Source: a virus (taxonomy: Duplodnaviria; Heunggongvirae; Uroviricota; Caudoviricetes). From it: DNA of 34,178 bases. How positions within the stretch are numbered: the first letter of the stretch is position 1; each line of letters begins with the position of its first letter. The notes below the pieces were generated by a model. That model was given only the letters and a program-made list of their open reading frames with translations. It was not told the DNA's origin and did not search any database. The stretch lies in the IMG/VR virus record IMGVR_UViG_2526164598_000024. One strand, given 5' to 3'. A program made the position numbers and the translations under genes. Positions 1-34,178 of the stretch are shown piece by piece.

Positions 1-981
1 TTATAACGTCACTCCGCCTTTTAGTGGATTCAGAGCGACGGCGTTCTGCAGGTAGTCAGGCGCAAGGTGCGCATAGGTCATTGTCTGCTGAATGCTCGCA
101 TGCCCCAGAATCTGTTGCAGTGCAATTATGTTGCCCCCATTCATCATGAAATGGCTTGCGAATGTATGCCGCAGAATGTGGGTTGCCTGATTGGGAGGTA
201 TATCAGGTTTCACTCTGCGTAAAATCCCGCAAAACTTCTCATAATCTACCTTGAACAATTTGGCGCTGGCCTCCTCTTTAACTTTTTTCTCCAGTTCCTC
301 AGAAATCGGCACTGTTCGCTTTTTACCGTTTTTGGTTTTCAGGAAGGTAACCCTGCAACTTGTAATCTGTGCTGGTTTTAGTGTGGCAACTTCCGTCCAC
401 CTTCCTCCAGTGCTCAGACATAAAAGCGCGACAAGTAAGTCATCACCAGTCAAAACATTTAGCAGTTTTTCGATTTCTGCTTTTTCCAGGAACGTCATTT
501 CAGGGTTAGCCTCCGTCAGTGGCGGCAGTCCGTGAATTGGGTGTTGCCCGGAAAATTCATCCAATTGAATTAATTTTGTGAACATGCCGGATAATCGGTA
601 CATGTCGCGGTTTATCGTTGCAGCACTGATGCCATCACGTAGTCGCATGGAGCGATAATCCATCAAAGCCCTTTTGTTCATCCGACTCACTGGTATATCA
701 CCTATGCCGCTGATGGTTTTGAGCAGATGATTAAACTCTTTTGTCCCATGCTCGTGGTTTTGCCCGTGGTATTTCCACCAGATGTCGAGCAATTCTGTCA
801 AAGTTCGGCGGTCTGCTCGCTGGCCTCCCCATTCTTTCTGACTGGCATTGGCGATTGTGTATCGCTCAAATGCTAGTGCTTCAGCTTTTCTTTCAAATTT
901 CCTGCGGATGCGTTTTCCGTTGCGACCGCGAGGTCTAATGTCCACTTCATAGCGACCATCATCGAGCTTCTTAATTGCCAT
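1..981 (-). CDS. int: P2-family tyrosine integrase
   Basis: Track ORF 1..1011 on minus strand; internal ATG at 981 is preceded by GGAGGG Shine-Dalgarno so it is the likelier start (MAIKKLDDGRYEV...). C-terminal region has the R..H..R..Y tyrosine-recombinase pattern (HILRHTFASH...MTYAHL). Sits next to a divergent repressor as in P2. Confidence 0.9.
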   Translation of the reverse strand: MAIKKLDDGRYEVDIRPRGRNGKRIRRKFERKAEALAFERYTIANASQKEWGGQRADRRTLTELLDIWWKYHGQNHEHGTKEFNHLLKTISGIGDIPVSRMNKRALMDYRSMRLRDGISAATINRDMYRLSGMFTKLIQLDEFSGQHPIHGLPPLTEANPEMTFLEKAEIEKLLNVLTGDDLLVALLCLSTGGRWTEVATLKPAQITSCRVTFLKTKNGKKRTVPISEELEKKVKEEASAKLFKVDYEKFCGILRRVKPDIPPNQATHILRHTFASHFMMNGGNIIALQQILGHASIQQTMTYAHLAPDYLQNAVALNPLKGGVTL

Positions 982-1050
982 AAGAAAGCCCTCCGGCGCT
1001 GTATTCACCATCTTGGTGGCAAATGGTGAAAATGTAATTTTTATATAGAG

Positions 1051-3237: not shown

Positions 3238-3509
3238 GTATTCGTATTGAAATTGGCGAACGTTATGTCGTTACCAGTGACAGCTTTCAGTTTATTCTCC
3301 ACGAGAAAAAGAGAGCGGAAAGCGGTAAAAACGCCGGTCAGGAATGGCTGGCGGTGGTTGGTTATTACCCGAAATTAGGCCAGCTCGTTTCCGGCCTGAT
3401 GCATCACGATATTCTGACCGGAAGCGCAAAATCTTTTGCTGATTTAAACGCGCAGGTTGAGCAACTCAGCAAGCGTTGTTCAGAGGCTTTTGGCTCATAT
3501 GGCCGTTAA
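3234..3509 (+). CDS. Small early protein (P2 orf83-like)
   Basis: 91-aa ORF, ATG at 3234 overlapping previous stop; synteny. Confidence 0.55.
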   Translation: MSIRIEIGERYVVTSDSFQFILHEKKRAESGKNAGQEWLAVVGYYPKLGQLVSGLMHHDILTGSAKSFADLNAQVEQLSKRCSEAFGSYGR

Positions 3510-5775
3510 AGCCTCCGGGCGTTTTGTCCCTCCGTCAGCATTTACCGCAGGCACCGGTAAGGCGTTTACCGGTGCTTATGCATGGAACGCGCCACGCGAG
3601 GCTGTCGGGCGCGAAAGACCTCTTACACGTGACGAGATGCGTCAGGTGCAAGGTGTTTTATCCACGATTAACCGCCTGCCTTACTTTTTGCGCTCGCTGT
3701 TTACTTCACGCTATGACTACATCCGGCGCAATAAAAGCCCGGTGCACGGGTTTTATTTCCTCACATCCACTTTTCAGCGTCGTTTATGGCCGCGCATTGA
3801 GCGTGTGAATCAGCGCCATGAAATGAACACCGACGCGTCGTTGCTGTTTCTGGCAGAGCGTGACCACTATGCGCGCCTGCCGGGAATGAATGACAAGGAG
3901 CTGAAAAAGTTTGCCGCCCGTATCTCATCGCAGCTTTTCATGATGTATGAGGAACTCTGCGATGCATGGGTTGATGCGCATGGTGAAAAAGAATCGCTGT
4001 TTACGGATGAGGCGCAGGCTCACCTGTATGGTCATGTTGCTGGCGCTGCACGTGCTTTCAATATTTCCCCGCTCTACTGGAAAAAATACCGTAAAGGACA
4101 GATGACCACGAGGCAGGCATATTCTGCCATTGCCCGTCTGTTTAACGATGAGTGGTGGACTCATCAGCTTAAAGGCCAGCGTATGCGCTGGCATGAAGCG
4201 TTACTGATAGCTGTCGGGGAGGTCAATAAAGACCGTTCTCCTTATGCCAGTAAACACGCCATTCGTGATGTGCGTGCGCGCCGCCAGGCAAATCTGGAAT
4301 TTCTTAAATCGTGTGACCTTGAAAACAGGGAAACCGGCGAGCGCATCGACCTTATCAGTAAGGTGATGGGCAGTATTTCTAATCCTGAAATTCGCCGGAT
4401 GGAGCTGATGAACACCATTGCCGGTATTGAGCGTTACGCCGCCGCAGAGGGCGATGTGGGGATGTTTATCACGCTGACCGCACCGTCAAAGTATCACCCG
4501 ACACGTCAGGTCGGAAAAGGCGAAAGTAAAACCGTGCAGCTTAATCACGGCTGGAACGATGAGGCATTTAATCCAAAGGATGCGCAGCGTTATCTCTGCC
4601 GTATCTGGAGCCTGATGCGCACGGCATTCAAGGATAATGATTTACAGGTTTACGGTTTGCGAGTCGTCGAGCCACACCACGACGGAACGCCGCACTGGCA
4701 TATGATGCTTTTTTGTAATCCACGCCAGCGTAACCAGATTATTGAAATCATGCGTCGCTACGCGCTCAAAGAGGATGGCGACGAAAGAGGAGCTGCGCGA
4801 AACCGTTTTCAGGCAAAACACCTTAACCGGGGCGGTGCTGCGGGATATATCGCGAAATACATTTCAAAAAACATCGACGGCTATGCACTGGATGGTCAGC
4901 TCGATAACGATACCGGCAGGCCGCTGAAAGACACTGCCGCGGCTGTTACCGCATGGGCGTCAACGTGGCGCATTCCGCAATTTAAAACGGTTGGCCTGCC
5001 GACAATGGGGGCTTACCGTGAACTACGCAAATTGCCTCGCGGCGTCAGCATTGCTGATGAGTTTGACGAGCGCGTCGAGGCTGCACGCGCCGCCGCAGAC
5101 AGTGGTGATTTTGCGTTGTATATCAGCGCGCAGGGTGGGGCAAATGTCCCGCGCGATTGTCAGACTGTCAGGGTCGCCCGTAGCCCGTCGGATGACGTTA
5201 ACGAGTACGAGGAAGAAGTCGAGAGAGTGGTCGGCATTTACGCGCCGCATCTCGGCGCGCGTCATATTCATATCACCAGAACGACGGACTGGCGCATTGT
5301 GCCGAAAGTTCCGGTCGTTGAGCCTTTGACTTTAAAAAGCGGCATCGCCGCGCCTCGGAGTCCTGTCAATAACTGTGGAAAGCTCACCGGTGGTGATACT
5401 TCGTTACCGGCTCCCACACCTTCTGAGCACGCCGCAGCAGTGCTTAATCTGGTTGATGACGGTGTTATCGAATGGAATGACCCGGAGGTCGTGAGGGCGC
5501 TCAAAAGCGCATTAAAACACGGCCTGAGAAGACCAAACCGTCAGCAAAGAAACGGAAACCCGTTAAAACCACATGAAATTGCACCATCGGCCAGACTGAG
5601 CCGGTCGGAGCGATTGCAAATCACCCGTATCCGCGTTGACCTTGCTCAGAATGGAATCTTGCCCCAGCGATGGGAGCTTGAGGCGCTGGCGCGTGGGGCA
5701 ACCGTAAATTATGACGGGAAAAAATTCACGTATCCGGTTGCTGATGAGTGGTCGGTTTTTTCAATTAAACAATAA
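3499..5775 (+). CDS. A: Replication initiation protein A (rolling-circle nickase)
   Basis: Large ORF (track 3457..5775); ATG at 3499 overlaps end of the upstream gene and gives about 758 aa, close to P2 gpA. Contains a tyrosine-rich motif region (AGYIAKYISKNIDGY) typical of rolling-circle initiators. Confidence 0.85.
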   Translation: MAVKASGRFVPPSAFTAGTGKAFTGAYAWNAPREAVGRERPLTRDEMRQVQGVLSTINRLPYFLRSLFTSRYDYIRRNKSPVHGFYFLTSTFQRRLWPRIERVNQRHEMNTDASLLFLAERDHYARLPGMNDKELKKFAARISSQLFMMYEELCDAWVDAHGEKESLFTDEAQAHLYGHVAGAARAFNISPLYWKKYRKGQMTTRQAYSAIARLFNDEWWTHQLKGQRMRWHEALLIAVGEVNKDRSPYASKHAIRDVRARRQANLEFLKSCDLENRETGERIDLISKVMGSISNPEIRRMELMNTIAGIERYAAAEGDVGMFITLTAPSKYHPTRQVGKGESKTVQLNHGWNDEAFNPKDAQRYLCRIWSLMRTAFKDNDLQVYGLRVVEPHHDGTPHWHMMLFCNPRQRNQIIEIMRRYALKEDGDERGAARNRFQAKHLNRGGAAGYIAKYISKNIDGYALDGQLDNDTGRPLKDTAAAVTAWASTWRIPQFKTVGLPTMGAYRELRKLPRGVSIADEFDERVEAARAAADSGDFALYISAQGGANVPRDCQTVRVARSPSDDVNEYEEEVERVVGIYAPHLGARHIHITRTTDWRIVPKVPVVEPLTLKSGIAAPRSPVNNCGKLTGGDTSLPAPTPSEHAAAVLNLVDDGVIEWNDPEVVRALKSALKHGLRRPNRQQRNGNPLKPHEIAPSARLSRSERLQITRIRVDLAQNGILPQRWELEALARGATVNYDGKKFTYPVADEWSVFSIKQ

Positions 5776-5976
5776 TGGCTACTGCCGCAGCGTTGTGGGA
5801 ATGCTATAGTGTTTGTAGAATTATCCCATGAAAAACAACTAATTAATCTGTTTTTCATATTGAACTAATTTTTTATGGCCACAGTTGTTAAAAAGTGAGA
5901 ACATAATCTTGTTCAAAACCTGCTTCTATATACGGAGGCTTTCGCTATAATACGCGGTCGGTTTTAGGAGGGGATA

Positions 5977-6921
5977 ATGCCAACAGTAGTTTCACTTTTT
6001 TCTGGATGCGGTGGTTCCGATGCGGGGGTTCTGAGAGCTGGCTTTGATGTGCTTATGGCCAACGATATCTTGCCGTATGCGCGCGATGTTTATATTGCCA
6101 ATCATCCAGAAACTGATTACATTTTAGGCAATATTGCTGATGTAACTACTTTTCCTAAATCTGATTTGCTAGTAGGTTGTTATCCATGTCAGGGATTCAG
6201 CCAGGGTGGTGCGCGTAAGGCCGATCGAAAAATTAATACTCTTTATTTAGAGTTTGCTAGAGCTTTAAACAATATAAAGCCTAAAGCTTTTATAGTAGAA
6301 AACGTGTCTGGTATGGTTAGAAAAAACTTCGAGCATTTGTTATCTGACCAGATCAGGGTTTTTACTGAAGCAGGTTATGCTGTTTCAGCAAAAGTTTTGA
6401 ATGCGGCTGAATATGGAGTAGCGCAGGAAAGAAAAAGAATATTTATCGTAGGAATCCGTAATGATTTCAAAGTTAAGTACGAGTTCCCTCAGCCAACTCA
6501 TGGGCCGGCGACTGGCGTCAACTATGTTACTATTAAAGATGCTATAGGGCATTTACCTGAATGGCCAGAAGGTGAATTTTATGATATGGGGTTCCATTGG
6601 TATTATATGTCTCGCAATCGTCGCCAAGATTGGGATCAAATTTCAAAGACAATAGTTGCTAATGCAAGGCATATGCCGTTGCATCCTATCAGTCCTTCGA
6701 TGGAGAAAGTAAGAACTGATGAATGGAGGTTTGTTGAGGATCGGAGAGCTCGCAGATTCAGTTTTCGAGAGGCAGCACTATTACAAGGGTTTGAGGATCT
6801 AGTGTTTCCCGAAACAAATGCTGCAAGTCTTGGCATGAAATACACGGTGGTTGGTAATGCAGTGCCTCCGCCGCTTTTTGAAGCTGTAACGAAGGCATTG
6901 CCAATAGAATTATGGGATTGA
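5977..6921 (+). CDS. DNA (cytosine-5)-methyltransferase, Dcm family
   Basis: 314 aa; canonical C5-MTase motifs visible: FSGCGG (motif I, AdoMet binding), PCQGFS (motif IV catalytic Cys), IVENVSGM (motif VI), QERKRIFIVG (motif VIII), GNAVPPPL (motif X). Strong Shine-Dalgarno AGGAGG before ATG 5977. AT-rich compared with phage backbone. Confidence 0.9.
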   Translation: MPTVVSLFSGCGGSDAGVLRAGFDVLMANDILPYARDVYIANHPETDYILGNIADVTTFPKSDLLVGCYPCQGFSQGGARKADRKINTLYLEFARALNNIKPKAFIVENVSGMVRKNFEHLLSDQIRVFTEAGYAVSAKVLNAAEYGVAQERKRIFIVGIRNDFKVKYEFPQPTHGPATGVNYVTIKDAIGHLPEWPEGEFYDMGFHWYYMSRNRRQDWDQISKTIVANARHMPLHPISPSMEKVRTDEWRFVEDRRARRFSFREAALLQGFEDLVFPETNAASLGMKYTVVGNAVPPPLFEAVTKALPIELWD

Positions 6922-6928
6922 TAAGCTA

Positions 6929-7921
6929 TTAAGGCTCTGGATTTAATGTATAAAGTTCTTCTTCAAATTCGCGAAACCAATCAGAGGTAGTTATCGCTTC
7001 CCATTGGTTTGCCTTATCAAGTAGATATATGATCCTCAACCTATCTAATAATAATACACCAGCGGTTGCATGTGTGCTTACCCATTCGCCATTTGCTTCC
7101 CGATAGAAAACAGGCGTGAACATTGTTGATGGATGCTGGAAAGCAATTTGGAAATAGGTGGTCAGTTTTAACACGTTAGCCTCTAATGTTTTGCTTGGCC
7201 ACCCTGTTTCTTGTGCACCACATTGACCAAGAATTCCATAGTTGCTAGTTTGACCATCAGGAAATTCCACTGTAGCAATTAGGTCAAACCCAGCATCACC
7301 AGATGTGGGAGCTTTATTTATTTCCCTTGTGTTTAAACTACAAACTCCAAGATCTTTTCCTAAAATTTGTAGAGCATTCCGAAGATTCGTTCCATAATAT
7401 TTTTGCCTATCATCGGAGTTAGCATCAAAAATTCTTACGGTGCCATGTGCAGGTAAGAGAGAAATCATTGCAACTTTACATACTCTGGCAAAGCTCTTTG
7501 CCCAACGTTGTGCTGCTCCTCTAATCGACTTAAAGGATCTAAGTCTAGAGCAACAAAGGAGAAAAACATATATTCTTTGTTGTTGGTTTAGATTTTCTTT
7601 AATAATTATCTCATCACCTGAAATTATAAATGGATATATCTTTCCAAGAGCGCTTTCTCTATATTCGAGTTGTGTCCAAACATCTTCTAGTTGCTCTTCA
7701 AAACGATCATTTCTCTCTGCGTCTCCATCAATTTCTTCTTCAAAATTACATTCTTCATCAATTTCTTCAACACTTGTCATGCCGAATTTTCTTACTGAAT
7801 CTAAATCATTTTTATGCAGAGAGTTACGTCCGATATAATTAATCACCGTGAGTAACTCGGCTAAATCTGCAAACAAATGGGGAGAGTTGGGATGCATAAC
7901 TCCTACTTCAAAAGTCATCAT
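6929..7921 (-). CDS. Hypothetical protein, 330-aa, candidate nuclease/effector partner of the adjacent methyltransferase and ParB-like gene
   Basis: Long uninterrupted minus-strand ORF in AT-rich DNA; ATG at 7921/7918 preceded by GAGGTG; converges on the MTase with only a 7-bp gap between stop codons; overlaps the end of the upstream ParB-like gene by about 14 bp (operon-like). No motif I can assign with confidence. Confidence 0.7.
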   Translation of the reverse strand: MMTFEVGVMHPNSPHLFADLAELLTVINYIGRNSLHKNDLDSVRKFGMTSVEEIDEECNFEEEIDGDAERNDRFEEQLEDVWTQLEYRESALGKIYPFIISGDEIIIKENLNQQQRIYVFLLCCSRLRSFKSIRGAAQRWAKSFARVCKVAMISLLPAHGTVRIFDANSDDRQKYYGTNLRNALQILGKDLGVCSLNTREINKAPTSGDAGFDLIATVEFPDGQTSNYGILGQCGAQETGWPSKTLEANVLKLTTYFQIAFQHPSTMFTPVFYREANGEWVSTHATAGVLLLDRLRIIYLLDKANQWEAITTSDWFREFEEELYTLNPEP

Positions 7922-8350
7922 CACCTCTGCTATTTTTCTCTGCTATTTCAGAACCTATAAGCTTAATATGTTTATTGATTCTTCGTGCTACTTCATGAGC
8001 CTGTCTATCATACTCTACTGTGGCAACCATGCCTGCTGCATCTATCAAAGCCGCTTCAACTTGATAAAGTAACTGGAGAAAGTCCTTAGTAATATCAGAT
8101 GTCAATTGGTAGGCCACTGCGAGTGGAGCCCCCATTCGGAATTGCTCCAATGCCTTAGGGCTACTAACAACAGCAGCTAATTCTCTTAAATTACGTGACT
8201 CTCCAACACGAGTTTTTTTATCCTCACCTTTTTTATATAACCACTCAGTTAGCTCTTTTATTTCTTTGTTCTTTAAGCTATTAGAGTTGATAATAGGATG
8301 ACTTGGTATTGTGTCTCCATCGTCTTCGATTGAAACTCCGACAAATTGGC
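7908..8350 (-). pseudogene. C-terminal fragment of ParB/Srx-domain protein gene split by IS2
   Basis: Reading frame continues exactly from the N-terminal fragment (9682..10365) once IS2 and one TTGGC copy are removed: ...ERLGQ|FVGVSIEDDGDT.... The track ORF 7908..8387 borrows an in-frame GTG start inside the IS2 right end. Confidence 0.8.
8346..8350. repeat. IS2 target-site duplication TTGGC (copy 1)
   Basis: 5-bp direct repeat immediately flanking the IS2 terminus at 8351; identical to 9682..9686. Confidence 0.85.
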
Positions 8351-8361
8351 TGGATTTGCCC

Positions 8362-9267
8362 CTATATTTCCAGACACCTGTTATCACTTAACCCATTACT
8401 GGCCTGCTGCCGCAGATATTCCCGTGGCGAGCGATAACCCAGTGCACTATGCGGATGCCATTCGTTATAATGCTCGAACGCCTCTGCAAGGTTCTTTGCT
8501 GCCGTTAACCCGTCTGGTTTAGGCATGATACTGATGTAGTCACGCTTTATCGTTTTCACGAAGCTCTCTGCTATGCCGTTACTCTCCGGACTCCGCACCG
8601 CCGTGTTCTTCGGTTCAAGCCCCAACATCCGGGCAAACTGCCGTGTTTCATTAGCCCGGTAGCATGAACCATTATCCGTCAGCCACTCTACTGGAGACGC
8701 CGGAAGCTCGTTGCCGAAGCGGCGTTCCACCGCTCCCAGCATTACGTCCTGTACTGTTTCACTGTCGAAGCCGCCCGTAGTGACTGCCCAGTGCAGTGCC
8801 TCACGGTCACAGCAGTCCAGCGCGAACGTGACTCGCAGTTTTTCTCCGTTATCACAGCGGAACTCGAACCCGTCAGAGCACCATCGTTGATTGCTTTCTT
8901 TCACGGCCACTTTGCCAGTATGTGCCCGTTTCGATGGCGGTACAGCGGTTTTTCGCTCAAGCAACAGCGCATTCTGGCGCATGATCCGGTAAACACGTTT
9001 GGCATTGATCGCAGGCATACCATCAAGTTCGGCCTGTCTGCGAAGCAGCGCCCATACCCGACGATAACCATACGTGGGCAGCTCTCCGATAACATGGTGT
9101 ATACGGAGAAGCACATCCGTATCATCTGAGTGACGGCTGCGGCGACCATCTTTCCAGTCATCGGTTCGTCTGAGAATTACGTGCAACTGCGCACGCGACA
9201 CCCGGAGACAACGGCTGACTAAGCTTACTCCCCATCCCCGGGCAATAAGGGCGCGTGCGCTATCCAC
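8362..9267 (-). CDS. insD: IS2 transposase OrfB (InsD), DDE integrase domain
   Basis: 301-aa ORF inside IS2; recognisable IS2 InsD sequence (..[20 protein letters not shown]..); overlaps insC as expected for -1 frameshift fusion. Confidence 0.9.
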
Positions 9268-9590
9268 TTTTTTGCACGCCCGTATTCAACGGCTTCTTTA
9301 AGGAGTTCATTTTCCATCGTTTTTTTGCCGAGCAGGCGCTGGAGTTCTTTAATCTGCTTCATGGCAGCAGCAAGTTCAGAGGCAGGAACGACCTGCTCTC
9401 CTGCGGCCACAGCAGTAAGACTTCCCTCCTGGTATTGCTTGCGCCAGAGAAATAACTGGCTGGCTGCCACACCGTGTTGCCGGGCAACAAGGGAGACCGT
9501 CATTCCCGGTTCAAAACTCTGCTGAACAATAGCGATCTTTTCCTGTGTAGTACGCCGTCTGCGTTTCTCCGGTCCTAAGACATCAATCAT
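9225..9590 (-). CDS. insC: IS2 transposase OrfA (InsC), HTH DNA-binding
   Basis: ATG at 9590 gives 121 aa starting [18 protein letters not shown], recognisable as IS2 InsC; track ORF extends further upstream to an earlier start. Confidence 0.9.
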
Positions 9591-9678
9591 CTGCTCTCCA
9601 ATGACTAGTCTAAAAACTAGTATTAAGACTATCACTTATTTAAGTGATATTGGTTGTCTGGAGATTCAGGGGGCCAGT

Positions 9679-10365
9679 CTATTGGCCTAACCGCTCATCA
9701 GCAAGTGCTGTTGATAATACTGAAAATTTAATCGTTTCTTCATCTAGTTTTTCAATACCATAAAAATCATTTTCTTTAATGATTTCATACACCGCTAAAG
9801 CGTCTAGGTTACGCTTGATATGATCCCTACGACTGCCAATAGCTCTGGCAACCTCATAGTAGCGTAGCATCGGATCCTGATTTGCATTGGTATAATCAAA
9901 AAGCTGTTTAATATATCGAGCTTTTGATAAGGGCTCCCATTGTTTGACACCAGTAATATGTCTGAAACCAAGATACGGAAGAATCTCTTCTCTTGTTTGG
10001 CGCTCAATGACAGGAACACGATCGACTGTATGTTTTGCATTTGATGCAATTTCTCGTAGTCGAGCACTTGGATTTTCACATAGTGTCGGATCGCGTAATA
10101 ATTTAACTGCGGATAGGCGACGGTTTCCTTCAACTACAATGTACTTCCCCGGCGCGACACTGTCAGGAATGACAATCAATGGTTCTCCAGGGAAAAAACC
10201 ATTTTCCGCAATAGCACTCATTAGATCTTCGATAGATGTTGAGGTTGCTATGTAGTTAATCATTCCCAATTGGTCACGAGACACGCCTTCAGGAAGTCTT
10301 GGGTTTTCTGTGTCAAGTTCCAAATCATCTAGCGGAACATAAAGTATTTCTGAATCAGCAATCAT
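9679..10365 (-). pseudogene. N-terminal fragment of ParB/Srx N-domain protein gene, truncated by IS2 (stop codon supplied by IS2 terminus)
   Basis: 228-aa ORF with ATG at 10365 and GGAG Shine-Dalgarno; contains ParB-box-like motif IVVEGNRRLSAVKLL (GxxRxxA arginine patch of ParB/sulfiredoxin fold). The TAG stop at 9679..9681 is the first three bases of IS2 (TAGACTGG...). Confidence 0.8.
9682..9686. repeat. IS2 target-site duplication TTGGC (copy 2)
   Basis: Identical 5-mer to 8346..8350, directly abutting the other IS2 terminus. Confidence 0.85.
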
Positions 10366-10610: not shown

Positions 10611-10779
10611 TGCGCGCTGGCGGTGGTGCTGATTTTATTTTTTCAGCGTCTGAGCGCGTCGTGATGGCGTTTAGATTGTTAGCCGGGGCGTTGGTGTGTC
10701 TGCGGGCTGTTTTGTGCGGTGGTGAGCGTGTGAGAGCGTGATGGCGGGTTGTAAAAAAGCCGCCCGCAGGCGGCGATGT

Positions 10780-11814
10780 TCAGCCGTTGTCAGTGTCCAG
10801 TGAGTAGTTTTTAAAGCGGATGACCTCCTGACCGAGCCAGCCGTTTATCTCGCGGATCCTGTCCTGTAACGGGATAAGTTCATTGCGGACAAAGACCTTT
10901 GCCACTTTCTCAATATCACCCAGCGACCCGACGTTCTCCGGCTTGCCACCCATCAACTGAAAGGGGATGCGGTGCGCGTCCAGCAGGTCAGCGGCGCTGG
11001 CTTTTTTGATATTAAAAAAATCGTCCTTCGTCGCCACTTCACTGAGGGGGATAATTTTAATGCCGTCGGCTTTCCCCTGTGGGGCATAGAGAAACAGGTT
11101 TTTAAAGTTGTTGCGGCCTTTCGACTTGACCATGTTTTCGCGAAGCATTTCGATATCGTTGCGGTCCTGCACGGCATCGGTGACGTACATGATGTATCCG
11201 GCATGTGCGCCGTTTTCGTAATACTTGCGGCGGAACAGCGTGGCCGACTCATTCAGCCAGGCAGAGTTAAGGGCGCTGAGATATTCCGGCAGACCGTACA
11301 GCTCCTGATTAATATCCGGCTCCAGCAGGTGAAACACGGAGCCGGGCGCGAAAGGTGTCGGCTCGTTGAAAGACGGCACCCACCAGTAAACATCCTCCTC
11401 CACGCCACGACGGGTATATTTGGCCGGTGAGGTTTCCAGTCTGATGACCTTACCGGTGGTGCTGTAACGCTTTTCCAGAAACGCATTACCGAACACCAGA
11501 AAATCCAGCACAAAACGGCTGAAATCCTGCTGGGAAAGCCACGGGTGCGGGATAAACGTTGAAGCCAGAATATTACGTTTGACGTAAATCGGTGAGCTGT
11601 GATGCACGGCAGCACGCAGACTTTTTGCCAGGCCGGTAAAGCTGACCGGTGGCTCATACCATCTGCCGTTACTGATGCACTCGACGTAATCCAGAATGTC
11701 ACGCCGGTCGAGTACCGGTACCGGCTCACCAAAGGTGAATGCCTCCATTTTCGGGGCGCTGGCGGTCATTGTTTTTGCCGCAGGTTGCGGTGTTTTCCCT
11801 TTTTTCTTGCTCAT
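10780..11814 (-). CDS. Q: Portal protein
   Basis: 344-aa ORF, ATG at 11814 overlapping the terminase stop (ATGA); divergent from O/N/M as in P2; length equals P2 gpQ. Confidence 0.9.
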   Translation of the reverse strand: MSKKKGKTPQPAAKTMTASAPKMEAFTFGEPVPVLDRRDILDYVECISNGRWYEPPVSFTGLAKSLRAAVHHSSPIYVKRNILASTFIPHPWLSQQDFSRFVLDFLVFGNAFLEKRYSTTGKVIRLETSPAKYTRRGVEEDVYWWVPSFNEPTPFAPGSVFHLLEPDINQELYGLPEYLSALNSAWLNESATLFRRKYYENGAHAGYIMYVTDAVQDRNDIEMLRENMVKSKGRNNFKNLFLYAPQGKADGIKIIPLSEVATKDDFFNIKKASAADLLDAHRIPFQLMGGKPENVGSLGDIEKVAKVFVRNELIPLQDRIREINGWLGQEVIRFKNYSLDTDNG

Positions 11815-25218: not shown

Positions 25219-26118
25219 ATGAGTGGTATTCGTATAACTCAGGCTATTGATAACAATCAGATTTTAGTCAATGTAAATACTTTTAATTATAGTGTTAATC
25301 CCTATCCACTCAAATGTCCTGACCCAAATTGCTCTGCTCATTTGGTGTATGTCAAAAGCCATATTCGTCGGAGTTTTAATAAAACCTTGCATATCCCCGC
25401 CTTCTTTAGACTGGAAAAAAATTTCACGCATGACAAATTATGTCAGTATGGAACTTCAGGATTGAATACAATTTATGCAAGTGATTCCAGTCATGATATC
25501 AGCCGTGCGCTTGCCACAGGTAATAATATATTCCGTATACATATACTCGATGAAGATGATATCTCTAAATTAAGCAGAAAAGCTGCAGCTATGCAGGCAA
25601 ATCCACCTTCTGATACTACAGACCGCGTTTATGTCAAGAGAGGTCGGAAAGCCCCCTATGTGAAGAACATGGATAGCTTACGGGAGATCTATGAATATGG
25701 AAAAGCTCACCCCAACAAGAGAAACAGCATAAAAATTGTTACTGGAACAAGTACTGTAACGTGGTCTGATTTTTTCTATGAAACAACGCAGTTAGAACGA
25801 TTGTCAACTTACCTCCAGAAAGTAAAAATAGCTCAGGTTGCTGTAATTATGAAAGTGCATGTGGCGAGAATCCCTATGGCGAAATTTAATTATCGACACT
25901 TCATTGAAGGTTCGCCAATGAGGATAAAAGGGGGCTTTAATATATATCCTACGATTCAATTAGGAAATGTTACTCCAAAATTATTTCCGTTGAGTAGCAT
26001 TGTCATGGTACTCGGTAAATTTACTATTCCAACAAATAGAAAAATGATAATGGATCCAACATTTGAGCGTGAAGTCAGAACCATAGTTTCTAGTGAAGAG
26101 CAAGTGCTAATTCTTTGA
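25219..26118 (+). CDS. Hypothetical protein in the Z/fun cargo locus (candidate phage-exclusion/defence gene)
   Basis: 299-aa ORF with strong GGAGGA Shine-Dalgarno, visibly AT-rich, flanked by long non-coding spacers between G and FI (the P2 Z/fun position). N-terminal Cys/His cluster (CPDPNCSAHLVYVKSH). May be the P2 Z/fun homologue; I cannot confirm from memory. Confidence 0.65.
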   Translation: MSGIRITQAIDNNQILVNVNTFNYSVNPYPLKCPDPNCSAHLVYVKSHIRRSFNKTLHIPAFFRLEKNFTHDKLCQYGTSGLNTIYASDSSHDISRALATGNNIFRIHILDEDDISKLSRKAAAMQANPPSDTTDRVYVKRGRKAPYVKNMDSLREIYEYGKAHPNKRNSIKIVTGTSTVTWSDFFYETTQLERLSTYLQKVKIAQVAVIMKVHVARIPMAKFNYRHFIEGSPMRIKGGFNIYPTIQLGNVTPKLFPLSSIVMVLGKFTIPTNRKMIMDPTFEREVRTIVSSEEQVLIL

Positions 26119-32740: not shown

Positions 32741-32821
32741 TGTTTTTATTTTATCTGTTTGTTTTGTAAGGATAAATTAACTAAAATGACACCATCAACA
32801 AAACCGGAAGAGGTGCTCGCG

Positions 32822-33040
32822 ATGTTTCATTGTCCTTTATGCCAGCATGCCGCACATGCGCGTACAAGCCGCTATATCACTGACACGACAAAAGAGCGTT
32901 ATCACCAGTGTCAGAACGTGAATTGCAGCGCCACGTTCATCACTTATGAGTCGGTGCAGCGATACATCGTGAAGCCGGGAGAAGTCCACGCCGTAAGGCC
33001 GCACCCGTTGCCGTCAGGACAGCAAATTATGTGGATGTGA
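32822..33040 (+). CDS. ogr: Late transcription activator Ogr (C4 zinc finger)
   Basis: ATG at 32822 gives 72 aa MFHCPLCQHAAHARTSRYITDTTKERYHQCQNVNCSATF... with the CxxC-N22-CxxxxC zinc-binding pattern; recognisably Ogr; last phage gene before host DNA. Confidence 0.9.
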   Translation: MFHCPLCQHAAHARTSRYITDTTKERYHQCQNVNCSATFITYESVQRYIVKPGEVHAVRPHPLPSGQQIMWM

Positions 33041-33194: not shown

Positions 33195-33275
33195 ATCCTC
33201 AATTTGCCTGCTGCTTAATGCATTGCAGATGATTTGCTTCCGTTATACTAGCGTCAGTTGATAGCGGGAGTATTT

Positions 33276-34178
33276 ATGAATCAATCTTATGGACGGCTGG
33301 TCAGTCGGGCGGCGATTGCTGCGACGGCGATGGCTTCGTTGCTATTGCTGATTAAAATTTTTGCATGGTGGTATACCGGGTCGGTGAGTATTCTCGCCGC
33401 GCTGGTGGATTCGCTGGTGGATATCGGCGCGTCGTTGACGAATTTATTGGTGGTGCGATATTCCCTGCAACCTGCCGACGATAATCACTCGTTTGGTCAC
33501 GGTAAAGCTGAGTCCCTCGCGGCGCTGGCGCAAAGTATGTTTATCTCCGGTTCGGCACTATTCCTGTTTTTGACGGGTATTCAACATCTGATATCTCCAA
33601 CACCGATGACAGATCCAGGCGTCGGGGTTATCGTGACAATTGTGGCGCTAATTTGTACGATTATCCTTGTCTCGTTTCAGCGTTGGGTGGTGCGGCGGAC
33701 GCAAAGCCAGGCGGTGCGGGCTGATATGCTACATTACCAGTCTGATGTTATGATGAACGGCGCAATTCTGCTGGCGCTGGGGTTGTCCTGGTACGGCTGG
33801 CATCGCGCCGATGCTCTGTTTGCATTGGGAATCGGCATCTATATTTTATATAGCGCGTTACGCATGGGATATGAGGCGGTACAGTCATTACTGGATCGCG
33901 CATTGCCTGATGAGGAACGGCAAGAAATTATTGATATCGTGACTTCCTGGCCGGGTGTTAGCGGCGCTCACGATCTTCGCACGCGGCAGTCAGGGCCGAC
34001 CCGCTTTATTCAGATTCATTTGGAAATGGAAGACTCTCTGCCTTTGGTTCAGGCACATATGGTGGCGGATCAGGTAGAGCAGGCTATTTTACGGCGTTTT
34101 CCGGGATCGGATGTAATTATCCATCAGGACCCCTGTTCCGTCGTACCCAGGGAGGGTAAACGGTCTATGCTTTCATAA
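33276..34178 (+). CDS. fieF: Cation-diffusion-facilitator family metal efflux transporter FieF (YiiP)
   Basis: 300-aa protein starting [49 protein letters not shown]..., recognisable as E. coli FieF/YiiP; six hydrophobic helices then cytoplasmic C-terminal domain; marks host chromosome to the right of the prophage. Confidence 0.9.

What the first reader, a model, noticed from the sequence alone, without database searches (positions are those of the whole stretch)
5977..6921. Prophage-borne Dcm-family C5-methyltransferase: self-protection partner versus stand-alone anti-restriction gene
All conserved C5-MTase motifs are present (FSGCGG, PCQ, ENV, QxRxR, GNAVPPP), so the enzyme is probably active. 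Its specificity (the variable region between motifs VIII and IX, about aa 165-280) cannot be read from sequence. It may protect the host and prophage DNA from the neighbouring putative nuclease, or be an orphan MTase that protects phage DNA from host restriction. Either way it should leave a methylation signature on the whole genome.
Basis: partly seen in the sequence, partly recalled or inferred. Interest (0 to 1): 0.55.

Follow-up and report, generated by a model that had tools for sequence, protein, structure and literature searches.

The report
Prophage methylase of a three-gene restriction cassette
The gene is an intact cytosine-5 DNA methylase that travels with two partner genes (a ParB-like protein and a nuclease-like protein) as one conserved, untested defence-type cassette in P2-like prophages, and in this copy an IS2 element has broken the ParB-like gene.

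Summary
Window 5977-6921 (+) encodes a 314-aa C5 DNA methyltransferase with motifs I, IV, VI, VIII, IX and X intact.

It is not a stand-alone gene. It is one of three genes in the P2 "replication endonuclease-portal" hotspot: MTase (+), converging on an operon of a ParB/Srx-like protein (373 aa when intact) and a 329-331-aa protein. The model of that protein resembles PD-(D/E)xK restriction endonucleases, but only weakly.

The trio recurs in prophages and islands of Escherichia, Klebsiella, Salmonella, Pseudomonas, Burkholderia and others:
- 72 of 75 informative viral loci carry all three genes.
- 12 of 19 informative species-representative genome loci carry all three genes.
- The gene order sometimes differs.
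- Coliphage Wphi carries it as gp98-gp96-mth.

The ParB-like protein matches PD-lambda-5_A models. PD-lambda-5 is a validated "ParB/HEPN + methyltransferase" defence system.

The specificity is partly readable. The target-recognition domain matches only M.HaeIII, and the four residues linked to GGCC specificity in M.HaeIII are conserved, so I predict GGCC.

In this window IS2 (8351-9681, TTGGC duplication) splits the ParB-like gene, so the cassette is probably crippled and the MTase may now act alone.

Nuclease activity, methylation and defence are all untested.

The parts
5776..5976 (+). Intergenic region between the gpA stop and the MTase start. It holds a strong Shine-Dalgarno sequence (AGGAGG) and a TATAAT hexamer. 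The promoter is not established.
   Evidence: Sequence read. The consensus promoter scan found no site of at least 9/12 matches here.
5977..6921 (+). C5 DNA methyltransferase, 314 aa. All catalytic motifs are intact. The target-recognition domain is HaeIII-like.
6929..7924 (-). 329-331-aa protein of unknown family (RefSeq start is the ATG at 7918). It has an N-terminal winged-helix domain and a C-terminal domain with a restriction-endonuclease-like fold. It is the presumed nuclease effector. Its stop codon lies 7 bp from the MTase stop.
7908..8350 (-). C-terminal fragment of the ParB/Srx-like gene (about the last 147 codons). It overlaps the start of the 331-aa gene by 11 nt, as in intact copies.
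   Evidence: Alignment to intact loci L001 and L002. Intact protein sequence.
8351..9681 (-). IS2 (IS3 family), 1331 bp, with both transposase ORFs on the minus strand (9225-9635 and 8362-9267). It is inserted in the ParB-like gene. The 5-bp target duplication TTGGC lies at 8346-8350 and 9682-9686.
   Evidence: No complete E. coli genome in the collection has this junction.
9682..10365 (-). N-terminal fragment of the ParB/Srx-like gene (about 226 codons), with the invariant EGNRR box. It matches PD-Lambda-5_A profiles.
3499..5775 (+). P2 gpA replication endonuclease, the left border of the hotspot. The mechanical ORF starts at 3457.
10780..11814 (-). P2 portal protein Q, the right border of the hotspot. 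A terminator-like hairpin at 10759-10774 separates it from the cassette.

Best explanation
The MTase is the modification component of a conserved three-gene, restriction-modification-like defence cassette. The cassette is carried as a low-GC moron in the gpA-portal hotspot of P2/186-like prophages.

Shown:
- The enzyme has every catalytic motif.
- Its target-recognition domain is of the M.HaeIII type.
- Close relatives are almost always next to a translationally coupled operon. That operon encodes a ParB/Srx-fold protein with an invariant EGNRR box, followed by a roughly 330-aa protein.
- The ParB-like protein is homologous over its first 280 or so residues to component A of the validated PD-lambda-5 system.

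Inferred:
- The MTase methylates GGCC (probably GGmCC) on host and prophage DNA.
- The 330-aa protein is the nuclease that attacks incoming DNA lacking that mark.
- The ParB-like protein is an NTP-dependent DNA-binding partner that loads, gates or activates the nuclease. This role would explain why the pair can survive in some genomes without a linked MTase.

In this particular window, IS2 has split the ParB-like gene. The copy is otherwise 1 mismatch in 10.5 kb from an intact prophage. The restriction arm is therefore probably inactive or deregulated, and the MTase is left as a likely still active, effectively solitary methylase.
For: MTase integrity and family:
-.

Target-recognition domain:
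- The full-length best PDB hit is M.HaeIII at 2.8e-48; the next best is 9e-25.
- The domain alone hits only M.HaeIII (E 5.9e-6, 62 ungapped residues).
- Ser224, Arg225, Arg227 and Arg243 of M.HaeIII are all conserved. PMC3526282 describes the first three as contacting GGCC bases. It also reports that Arg243Gln shifts preference away from GGCC.
- The domain motif is conserved in all cassette MTases examined.

Linkage:
- The same trio occurs in Pseudomonas, Burkholderia, Methylophilaceae and Salmonella.
- All three close MTase homologues examined in Klebsiella/Enterobacter lie in the same hotspot with both partners.
- 12 of 19 informative species-representative loci have the trio, two of them with the order MT-ParB-RE on one strand.
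- 72 of 75 informative IMG/VR loci have it.
- In E. coli, 48 complete genomes carry an MTase at 95% identity or more, and 48 carry the whole cassette.
- Phage Wphi carries gp98/gp96/mth.

Fold of the 331-aa protein:
-.

ParB fold and PD-lambda-5_A homology:
-.
- PD-lambda-5 is described as 'ParB/HEPN, methyltransferase', and had to be cloned in a host deleted for the mrr region.

Foreign origin:
- Cassette GC is 0.38-0.42 against 0.53 for the flanking genes.

IS2:
-.
Against: - No biochemical or genetic data were found for this cassette.
- The catalytic residues could not be assigned.
- 7 of 19 informative genomic loci have an intact-looking ParB + nuclease pair with no C5 MTase within 5 kb. 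A constitutive restriction enzyme should not tolerate that.
- The MTase is far more conserved (75-76%) than its partners (26-34%) between cassette subtypes. The partnership may therefore be modular rather than specificity-matched.
- GGCC is only mildly under-represented in the prophage (observed/expected 0.66) and not at all in the cassette.
- Expression from the prophage is unknown.
Confidence: 0.62

Rival explanations
1. 'RM + Abi'-type or gated system. The ParB-like + nuclease pair is a self-contained sensor/effector whose activity does not depend on the methylation state of the target. The MTase is an accessory that serves another purpose, such as protecting prophage or host DNA from other restriction systems, or tuning the pair.
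For: - 7 of 19 informative genomic loci keep the pair, with the nuclease signature intact, but no nearby C5 MTase.
- One viral locus has RE without MT (L124).
- Vassallo et al. describe PD-lambda-5 as a compacted RM+Abi system with unusually broad protection.
- The partners diverge to 26-34% identity while the MTase stays at 75-76%.
Against: - In viral contexts the MTase is present in 72 of 75 informative loci, and it stays linked even where the gene order changes. That is hard to explain for a dispensable accessory.
- MTase-less genomes may carry an unlinked MTase. This could not be checked.
Confidence: 0.2
2. Stand-alone (orphan) phage MTase. Its job is to protect phage DNA from host restriction or to act epigenetically, and the neighbouring genes are unrelated morons.
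For: - Phage-borne orphan MTases are common (general knowledge).
- In this window the neighbouring operon is broken by IS2 while the MTase is intact.
- The MTase has its own intergenic region and is transcribed convergently, not as part of the partner operon.
Against: - Synteny with the same two partner families is conserved across Gamma- and Betaproteobacteria and an Acidobacteriota MAG, in prophages and in integrase-linked islands.
- The 48 E. coli genomes with a close MTase copy match in number the 48 that hold the whole cassette.
Confidence: 0.08
3. Addiction (post-segregational killing) module whose main role is to stabilise the prophage or island rather than to defend against phage. The long-lived nuclease kills cells that lose the MTase.
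For: - Type II restriction-modification systems are known to behave as selfish addiction modules (general knowledge).
- The cassette is always on mobile elements, often next to integrases.
Against: - It occupies the P2 hotspot, where other cargo has been shown to be antiviral (PMC9519451).
- Loss of the ParB gene by IS2 while MTase and nuclease are retained shows that partial loss is tolerated.
- This rival is not exclusive of the defence role.
Confidence: 0.07

Closest known systems
PD-lambda-5 (Vassallo et al. 2022, PMC9519451): 'ParB/HEPN + methyltransferase', from E. coli ECOR7
   Same: - A ParB-like protein is paired with a DNA methyltransferase on a mobile element.
- The ParB-like protein here matches many PD-Lambda-5_A profiles (best 6e-29, residues 9-282 on profile positions 7-277 of 440).
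- The authors read PD-lambda-5 as a compact RM+Abi system. They had to clone it in a host lacking the mrr region, which fits an active methylase.
   Different: - PD-lambda-5 has two genes; this cassette has three.
- The C-terminal (HEPN) part of the PD-Lambda-5_A profiles is not matched. An Rx4-6H motif is not conserved in this family (consensus RRIxxN).
- A separate 330-aa protein with a restriction-endonuclease-like fold occupies the effector position.
- No PD-Lambda-5_B model appeared among the listed MTase hits. The MTases may therefore be unrelated; I could not fetch the ECOR7 sequences.
Classical Type II restriction-modification systems with a C5 MTase, such as HaeIII (GGCC)
   Same: - A monospecific C5 MTase of about 310-330 aa converges on a gene whose product has a PD-(D/E)xK-like fold.
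- The target-recognition domain is homologous to that of M.HaeIII, with Ser224, Arg225, Arg227 and Arg243 conserved.
   Different: - A third, obligatorily linked and translationally coupled ParB/Srx-like gene is present.
- The nuclease-like protein matches no Pfam family at all, so it matched none of Pfam's restriction-endonuclease families.
- Some loci lack the MTase.
Coliphage Wphi TO-region genes gp98, gp96 and mth (GenBank AY135739)
   Same: - Same position between gpA and the cos/portal end.
- Same three families in the same order and orientation.
- mth is annotated as 'DNA cytosine methylase' and is 76% identical to the window MTase.
   Different: - gp98 and gp96 are only 34% and 26% identical to the window's ParB-like and nuclease-like proteins.
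- No functional study of these genes was found.
Druantia type II methylase DruM
   Same: The best PADLOC profile for the MTase is DruM2 (1e-113, full length including the target-recognition domain).
   Different: There are no DruE, DruF or DruG genes. The hotspot holds only the three genes plus IS2. The largest ORF in the window is 815 aa, and the window is otherwise largely occupied by a P2-like prophage.
GmrSD / DndB / DpdB-type ParB-superfamily defence proteins
   Same: A ParB/Srx-fold NTPase- or nuclease-type domain is recruited to a DNA-modification-linked defence context.
   Different: - No DUF262, DUF1524 or HNH domains were found.
- It is associated with a methylase-protected system, not a modification-dependent (Type IV) one.

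Membership tests
C5 DNA methyltransferase (Pfam PF00145 / TIGR00675) | Profile score above the curated cutoff over the full length | tested here: met
   PF00145 scores 220.4 bits against a cutoff of 22. TIGR00675 scores 191.7 against 100.65.
C5 DNA methyltransferase (Pfam PF00145 / TIGR00675) | Conserved motifs I (FxGxGG), IV (PCQ, catalytic Cys), VI (ENV), VIII (QxRxR), IX and X (GNxV) in canonical order | tested here: met
   Positions 8-13, 70-72, 108-110, 150-154, 264-272 and 293-296.
C5 DNA methyltransferase (Pfam PF00145 / TIGR00675) | Methyl transfer to cytosine C5 in DNA | not testable with these tools
   Needs a methylome or a HaeIII-resistance assay.
E. coli Dcm orthologue (NCBIfam NF007772) | Score above the subfamily cutoff | tested here: not met
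   38.1 bits against a cutoff of 710.
M.HaeIII-type (GGCC) specificity group | Homologous target-recognition domain with Ser224, Arg225, Arg227 and Arg243 retained | tested here: met
   The domain alone hits only M.HaeIII (E 5.9e-6). MSRNR and the Arg243 equivalent are conserved. The residue roles come from PMC3526282.
M.HaeIII-type (GGCC) specificity group | Methylation of GGCC demonstrated | not testable with these tools
   This is a prediction only.
Type II restriction-modification system | Cognate endonuclease gene adjacent to the MTase | tested here: inconclusive
Type II restriction-modification system | Two-component architecture (R + M, optionally C) | tested here: not met
   A third ParB-like gene is always coupled to the nuclease-like gene.
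PD-lambda-5 | Component A: ParB-like N-terminal region | tested here: met
   Matches PD-Lambda-5_A profiles, best 6.2e-29. The fold is ParB/Srx.
PD-lambda-5 | Component A: C-terminal HEPN domain | tested here: not met
PD-lambda-5 | Component B: the same methyltransferase family | tested here: inconclusive
   No PD-Lambda-5_B model is among the 25 best listed hits for the whole MTase or its C-terminal half.
PD-lambda-5 | Two-gene system | tested here: not met
   Three genes.
Druantia type II | DruM together with DruE (large helicase), DruF and DruG | tested here: not met
   The MTase matches DruM2 at 1e-113. The hotspot holds only three genes plus IS2. No ORF in the window exceeds 815 aa.
Orphan (solitary) MTase | No conserved partner genes | tested here: not met
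   Synteny with the ParB-like and 330-aa families is conserved. In this window alone, however, the partner operon is IS2-disrupted.
IS2 (IS3 family) | About 1331 bp, two overlapping transposase ORFs (HTH_Tnp_1, rve), 5-bp target duplication | tested here: met
   8351-9681. TTGGC duplication. Pfam hits on both ORFs. A matching phage record annotates the element as IS2.

The most novel reading that the evidence does not exclude
The cassette is a distinct, widespread and so far uncharacterised kind of restriction system. In it, a ParB/Srx-type NTP-dependent DNA clamp or switch (invariant EGNRR box) is an obligatory partner of a new family of nuclease with a restriction-endonuclease-like fold. Self DNA is marked by a HaeIII-type m5C methylase. 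The ParB-like protein would gate or deliver the nuclease, which would explain MTase-less loci. PD-lambda-5 would then be the HEPN-effector sibling of the same design.
Probability: 0.3. Interest if true: 0.7.

Novelty: new variant of a known kind. Interest (0 to 1): 0.45.

Why it matters
The MTase by itself is ordinary. What it points to is more interesting.

- Scale. A conserved three-gene module sits in the best-known prophage defence hotspot. An MTase of this family is present in 226 of 5,426 complete E. coli genomes. One Klebsiella/Enterobacteriaceae MTase cluster alone is indexed in 987 blocks of the assembly collection.
- Unknown partners. Two of the three proteins have no family annotation in Pfam, NCBIfam or PHROGs.
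- Mechanism. If the ParB-like protein really controls a restriction nuclease, this would add a mechanistic class to restriction-modification. It would also explain the validated but mechanistically unexplored PD-lambda-5 system.
- Practical consequence. A GGCC-methylating prophage would make host DNA resistant to HaeIII-type enzymes and sensitive to McrBC in recipients. That affects cloning, gene transfer and methylome interpretation.
- Natural control. The IS2-disrupted copy is a natural mutant, one mismatch in 10.5 kb away from an intact copy, and is useful as a comparison strain.

Tried and rejected
GGCC observed/expected is 0.66 in the prophage and 1.00 in the cassette. This is too weak and too confounded to be informative. 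GATC depletion (0.28) dominates.
- Promoter and terminator scan. It found no convincing promoter upstream of the MTase and no terminator between the convergent genes. The counts do not exceed those of shuffles.
- Sequence-based identification of the 331-aa protein. Pfam, NCBIfam, PADLOC, PHROGs and a profile against PDB sequences all gave nothing functional.
- Foldseek against PDB. It gave no hit at E 0.001 or better. The afdb50 library was unavailable.
- Druantia II membership. Rejected because the partner genes are absent.
- Literature searches. Searches for the RefSeq accessions, for ParB + methylase + endonuclease prophage systems, for Wphi mth and for methylome reports found no characterisation. 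Odegrip 2006 is not held.
- Source strain. No complete RefSeq E. coli genome carries this IS2 junction.
- PD-lambda-5 sequences. I could not retrieve the ECOR7 protein sequences for a direct comparison.
- MTase-less genomes. I could not check whether they carry an unlinked MTase.

Full report
**1. Observation**

Window 5977-6921 (+) is an ATG-initiated ORF of 314 aa, preceded by AGGAGG. It matches Pfam DNA_methylase end to end (E 5.2e-65) and TIGR00675 above its cutoff.

All six diagnostic motifs are intact and in canonical order:
- FSGCGG, 8-13
- PCQ, 70-72
- ENV, 108-110
- QERKR, 150-154
- REAALLQGF, 264-272
- GNAVPPP, 293-299

The protein is not an orthologue of E. coli Dcm: NF007772 scores 38 bits against a cutoff of 710.

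**2. Setting**

The window is largely occupied by a P2-like prophage:
- integrase at 1-1011 (-);
- gpA at 3499-5775;
- portal Q at 10780-11814 (-);
- ogr at 32759-33040;
- the host gene fieF from 33258.

The MTase lies between gpA and Q. This is the locus that holds old/tin in P2. Vassallo et al. call it P2 defence hotspot #1 (PMC9519451).

The 5-kb insert has 38-42% GC, against 53% for its neighbours.

It contains:
- the MTase (+);
- a convergent 329-331-aa ORF (6929-7924, -) whose stop is 7 bp from the MTase stop;
- two fragments of a ParB-like gene (7908-8350 and 9682-10365, -), separated by IS2.

IS2 spans 8351-9681 (1331 bp) and is flanked by a TTGGC duplication.

The intact arrangement has a 373-aa ParB-like gene that overlaps the next gene by 11 nt. 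It is present in E. coli 67-1, TW10590, an ATCC 8739 assembly and Yersinia phage HQ103.

The window differs from TW10590 by one mismatch in 10.5 kb apart from the IS2. No complete RefSeq E. coli genome has this IS2 junction. The insertion is therefore recent.

**3. Is the MTase linked to its neighbours?**

Yes.

*Other bacteria.* Homologues of the 331-aa protein number 246, none with a Pfam domain. In Pseudomonas, Burkholderia, Methylophilaceae and Salmonella they sit in the same arrangement: ParB-like gene, then the 330-aa gene, converging on a C5 MTase. The carriers are different prophages or integrase-linked islands.

*Species-representative genomes.* Twenty-two loci were recovered.
- The ParB-like gene is present immediately upstream wherever the flank allows.
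- An MTase 60-77% identical to this one is adjacent in 12 loci.
- In two of those (L033, L034) the order is MT-ParB-RE on one strand.

*Viral contigs.* Of 80 IMG/VR loci recovered with the ParB-like protein, 75 have enough downstream sequence to judge, and 72 of those carry all three genes. Many of these loci are near-duplicates, so the counts are not independent events.

*Starting from the MTase.* The three close homologues I looked up (Klebsiella/Enterobacter, 75-89% identity) all lie in the gpA-portal hotspot with both partners.

*E. coli.* 48 complete genomes have an MTase at 95% identity or more, and 48 have the whole cassette. 226 of 5,426 carry some member of the MTase family.

*Wphi.* Coliphage Wphi carries the trio as gp98, gp96 and mth, annotated 'DNA cytosine methylase'.

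The 'orphan MTase' reading is therefore poorly supported as the ancestral state.

**4. What are the partners?**

*The ParB-like protein.*
- AF2 pLDDT is 89.
- It has an invariant E-G-N-R-R box.
- It matches 25 PD-Lambda-5_A profiles, best 6e-29, over residues 9-282.
- Its C-terminal 90 residues are helical, but they do not match the HEPN part of those profiles.
- The family lacks a conserved Rx4-6H motif.

*The 331-aa protein.*
- pLDDT is 83.6 and pTM 0.86.
- It has an N-terminal winged helix and a C-terminal alpha/beta domain.
- Foldseek agrees in kind but not in strength: BsaWI E 6e-3, MspJI prob 0.92, nothing at E 0.001 or better.
- A family signature, GDxGxD[LI]...QCG..W..K.LE, survives down to 26% identity.
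- I could not assign a canonical catalytic triad. Residues 237-249 are modelled with pLDDT below 50.

The nuclease role is therefore probable but not shown.

**5. Specificity**

- M.HaeIII is the best PDB match over the full length (2.8e-48, against 9e-25 for the next).
- The variable region alone (aa 173-265) retrieves only M.HaeIII from 177,635 PDB sequences (E 5.9e-6, 62 ungapped residues).
- In that alignment M.HaeIII Ser224, Arg225, Arg227 and Arg243 are all identical in the window protein.
- Rockah-Shmuel and Tawfik (PMC3526282) state that Arg225 contacts the first G of GGCC and that Ser224 and Arg227 contact the internal bases. They also report that Arg243Gln shifts preference away from GGCC.
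- The motif FHWYY[LM]SR[ND]RR..W..SKT[IV]V..RH[MV]PLHP is conserved in all 19 cassette MTases aligned.

I therefore predict GGCC as the recognition sequence, with probability about 0.6.

A subgroup of viral loci has a 44%-identical MTase on the same scaffold, with the Arg243 equivalent replaced. That subgroup may recognise a different site.

Two circumstantial points fit an active methylase that generates RmC sites:
- M.HaeIII must be cloned in hosts lacking McrA, McrBC and Mrr, and PD-lambda-5 needed a host deleted for the mrr region.
- E. coli W and Crooks, both reported to lack hsdRMS, mcrBC and mrr (PMC3032704), each have an assembly carrying an MTase of this family. This is n = 2 and only suggestive.

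**6. Mechanism I commit to**

The MTase marks host and prophage DNA (inferred: GGmCC). The ParB-like and 331-aa proteins form the restriction arm against unmarked incoming DNA. The ParB-like protein acts as an NTP-dependent DNA-binding partner that gates or delivers the nuclease.

Shown:
- gene integrity;
- fold and family assignments;
- synteny;
- homology to PD-lambda-5_A;
- the IS2 disruption.

Inferred:
- methylation activity and motif;
- nuclease activity;
- the ParB role;
- the defence phenotype.

In this window the ParB-like gene is split. The nuclease gene is intact and lies downstream of IS2 in the same orientation as the transposase genes. An ORF starting inside IS2 (GTG at 8387) runs in frame into the ParB C-terminal fragment. 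Residual expression is therefore possible but unknown. The MTase is probably the only fully functional component left.

**7. What does not fit**

Seven of 19 informative genomic loci have the ParB + nuclease pair, with the signature intact, but no C5 MTase within 5 kb. These are L014, L017, L019, L022 and L025-L027. Their neighbours are housekeeping genes, a type I S subunit or an IS605-type element.

There are three possible explanations:
- an unlinked MTase exists elsewhere in those genomes;
- these copies are silent;
- the pair is not a constitutive restriction enzyme.

The last possibility is the main rival: a gated or 'RM+Abi' design, as Vassallo et al. suggested for PD-lambda-5.

In addition, the MTase is much more conserved between cassette subtypes (75-76%) than its partners (26-34%).

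**8. Comparison with known systems, and novelty**

The MTase is a new member of a well-known family.

The cassette is best described as a new variant of known kinds.
- It resembles a Type II restriction-modification system. The differences are an obligatory ParB-like third gene and an unclassified nuclease family.
- It resembles PD-lambda-5, but with a separate effector of restriction-endonuclease-like fold in place of a fused HEPN domain.
- It is not Druantia II, despite the DruM2 profile match, because no DruE, DruF or DruG is present.
- It is not GmrSD-like.

The genes have been in GenBank since the Wphi record. I found no functional study. PHROGs lists both partners as unknown.

**9. Verdict**

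The 'partner' alternative is favoured, with the twist that the partner operon is broken here.
- Interest is moderate (0.45): the enzyme is ordinary, and the system it belongs to is unstudied.

Noticed in passing
window 8351-9681 (target duplication at 8346-8350 and 9682-9686): IS2 is inserted in the ParB-like gene with a TTGGC duplication. The prophage is otherwise 1 mismatch in 10.5 kb from that of E. coli TW10590. No complete RefSeq E. coli genome has this junction.
   Followed up: yes
window 25219-26118 (+): A 299-aa ORF sits at the P2 Z/fun position, the second P2 defence hotspot described by Vassallo et al. It has no Pfam or PADLOC hit and matches only phrog_7195 (unknown function). It is a candidate moron or defence gene.
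   Followed up: partly
whole window: GATC is strongly depleted: 38 observed against 136 expected, ratio 0.28. GGCC is mildly depleted (0.66). The cassette itself shows neither.
   Followed up: partly
L003 (Yersinia phage HQ103, MZ420230) 4202-5146: The 99%-identical MTase ORF is present but not annotated in the phage record.
   Followed up: partly
L043 (Yersinia phage L-413C) 207-1199: Only a truncated ParB-like gene remains (62% identical, residues 9-303). There is no nuclease or MTase. This is a decayed copy of the cassette.
   Followed up: partly
L008 7165-7929 and L009 3165-4097 (Methylophilaceae): An HNH_2-domain gene is inserted between the nuclease-like gene and the MTase in these loci.
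   Followed up: no
L037 (Klebsiella) and L042 (phage Wphi), compared with the window: Between cassette subtypes the MTase stays 75-76% identical, while the nuclease-like protein (26-27%) and the ParB-like protein (32-34%) have diverged strongly.
   Followed up: partly
L077, L082, L084, L085, L115 (IMG/VR): A subgroup has a co-directional C5 MTase that is 44% identical. It has the same HaeIII-like target-recognition scaffold, but the Arg243 equivalent is replaced by His or Ala, so its specificity may be shifted.
   Followed up: partly
window 7690-7780 (-), residues ~48-80 of the 331-aa protein: A very acidic helical stretch (EEIDEECNFEEEIDGDAERNDRFEEQLED) lies between the winged-helix and nuclease-like domains. 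Its function is unknown.
   Followed up: no
window 6919-6931: The MTase and nuclease-like genes converge with only 7 bp between their stop codons. No terminator-like hairpin was found, so convergent transcripts would overlap.
   Followed up: partly
window 33258-34178 (+): The host gene fieF (cation efflux family) lies just beyond ogr. Archer et al. give the cpxP-fieF interval as the site of prophage Wphi1 in E. coli W.
   Followed up: partly
window 3457-5775 (+): The mechanical gpA ORF (TTG start, 772 aa) is longer than the RefSeq gene, which corresponds to 3499-5775 (758 aa).
   Followed up: partly
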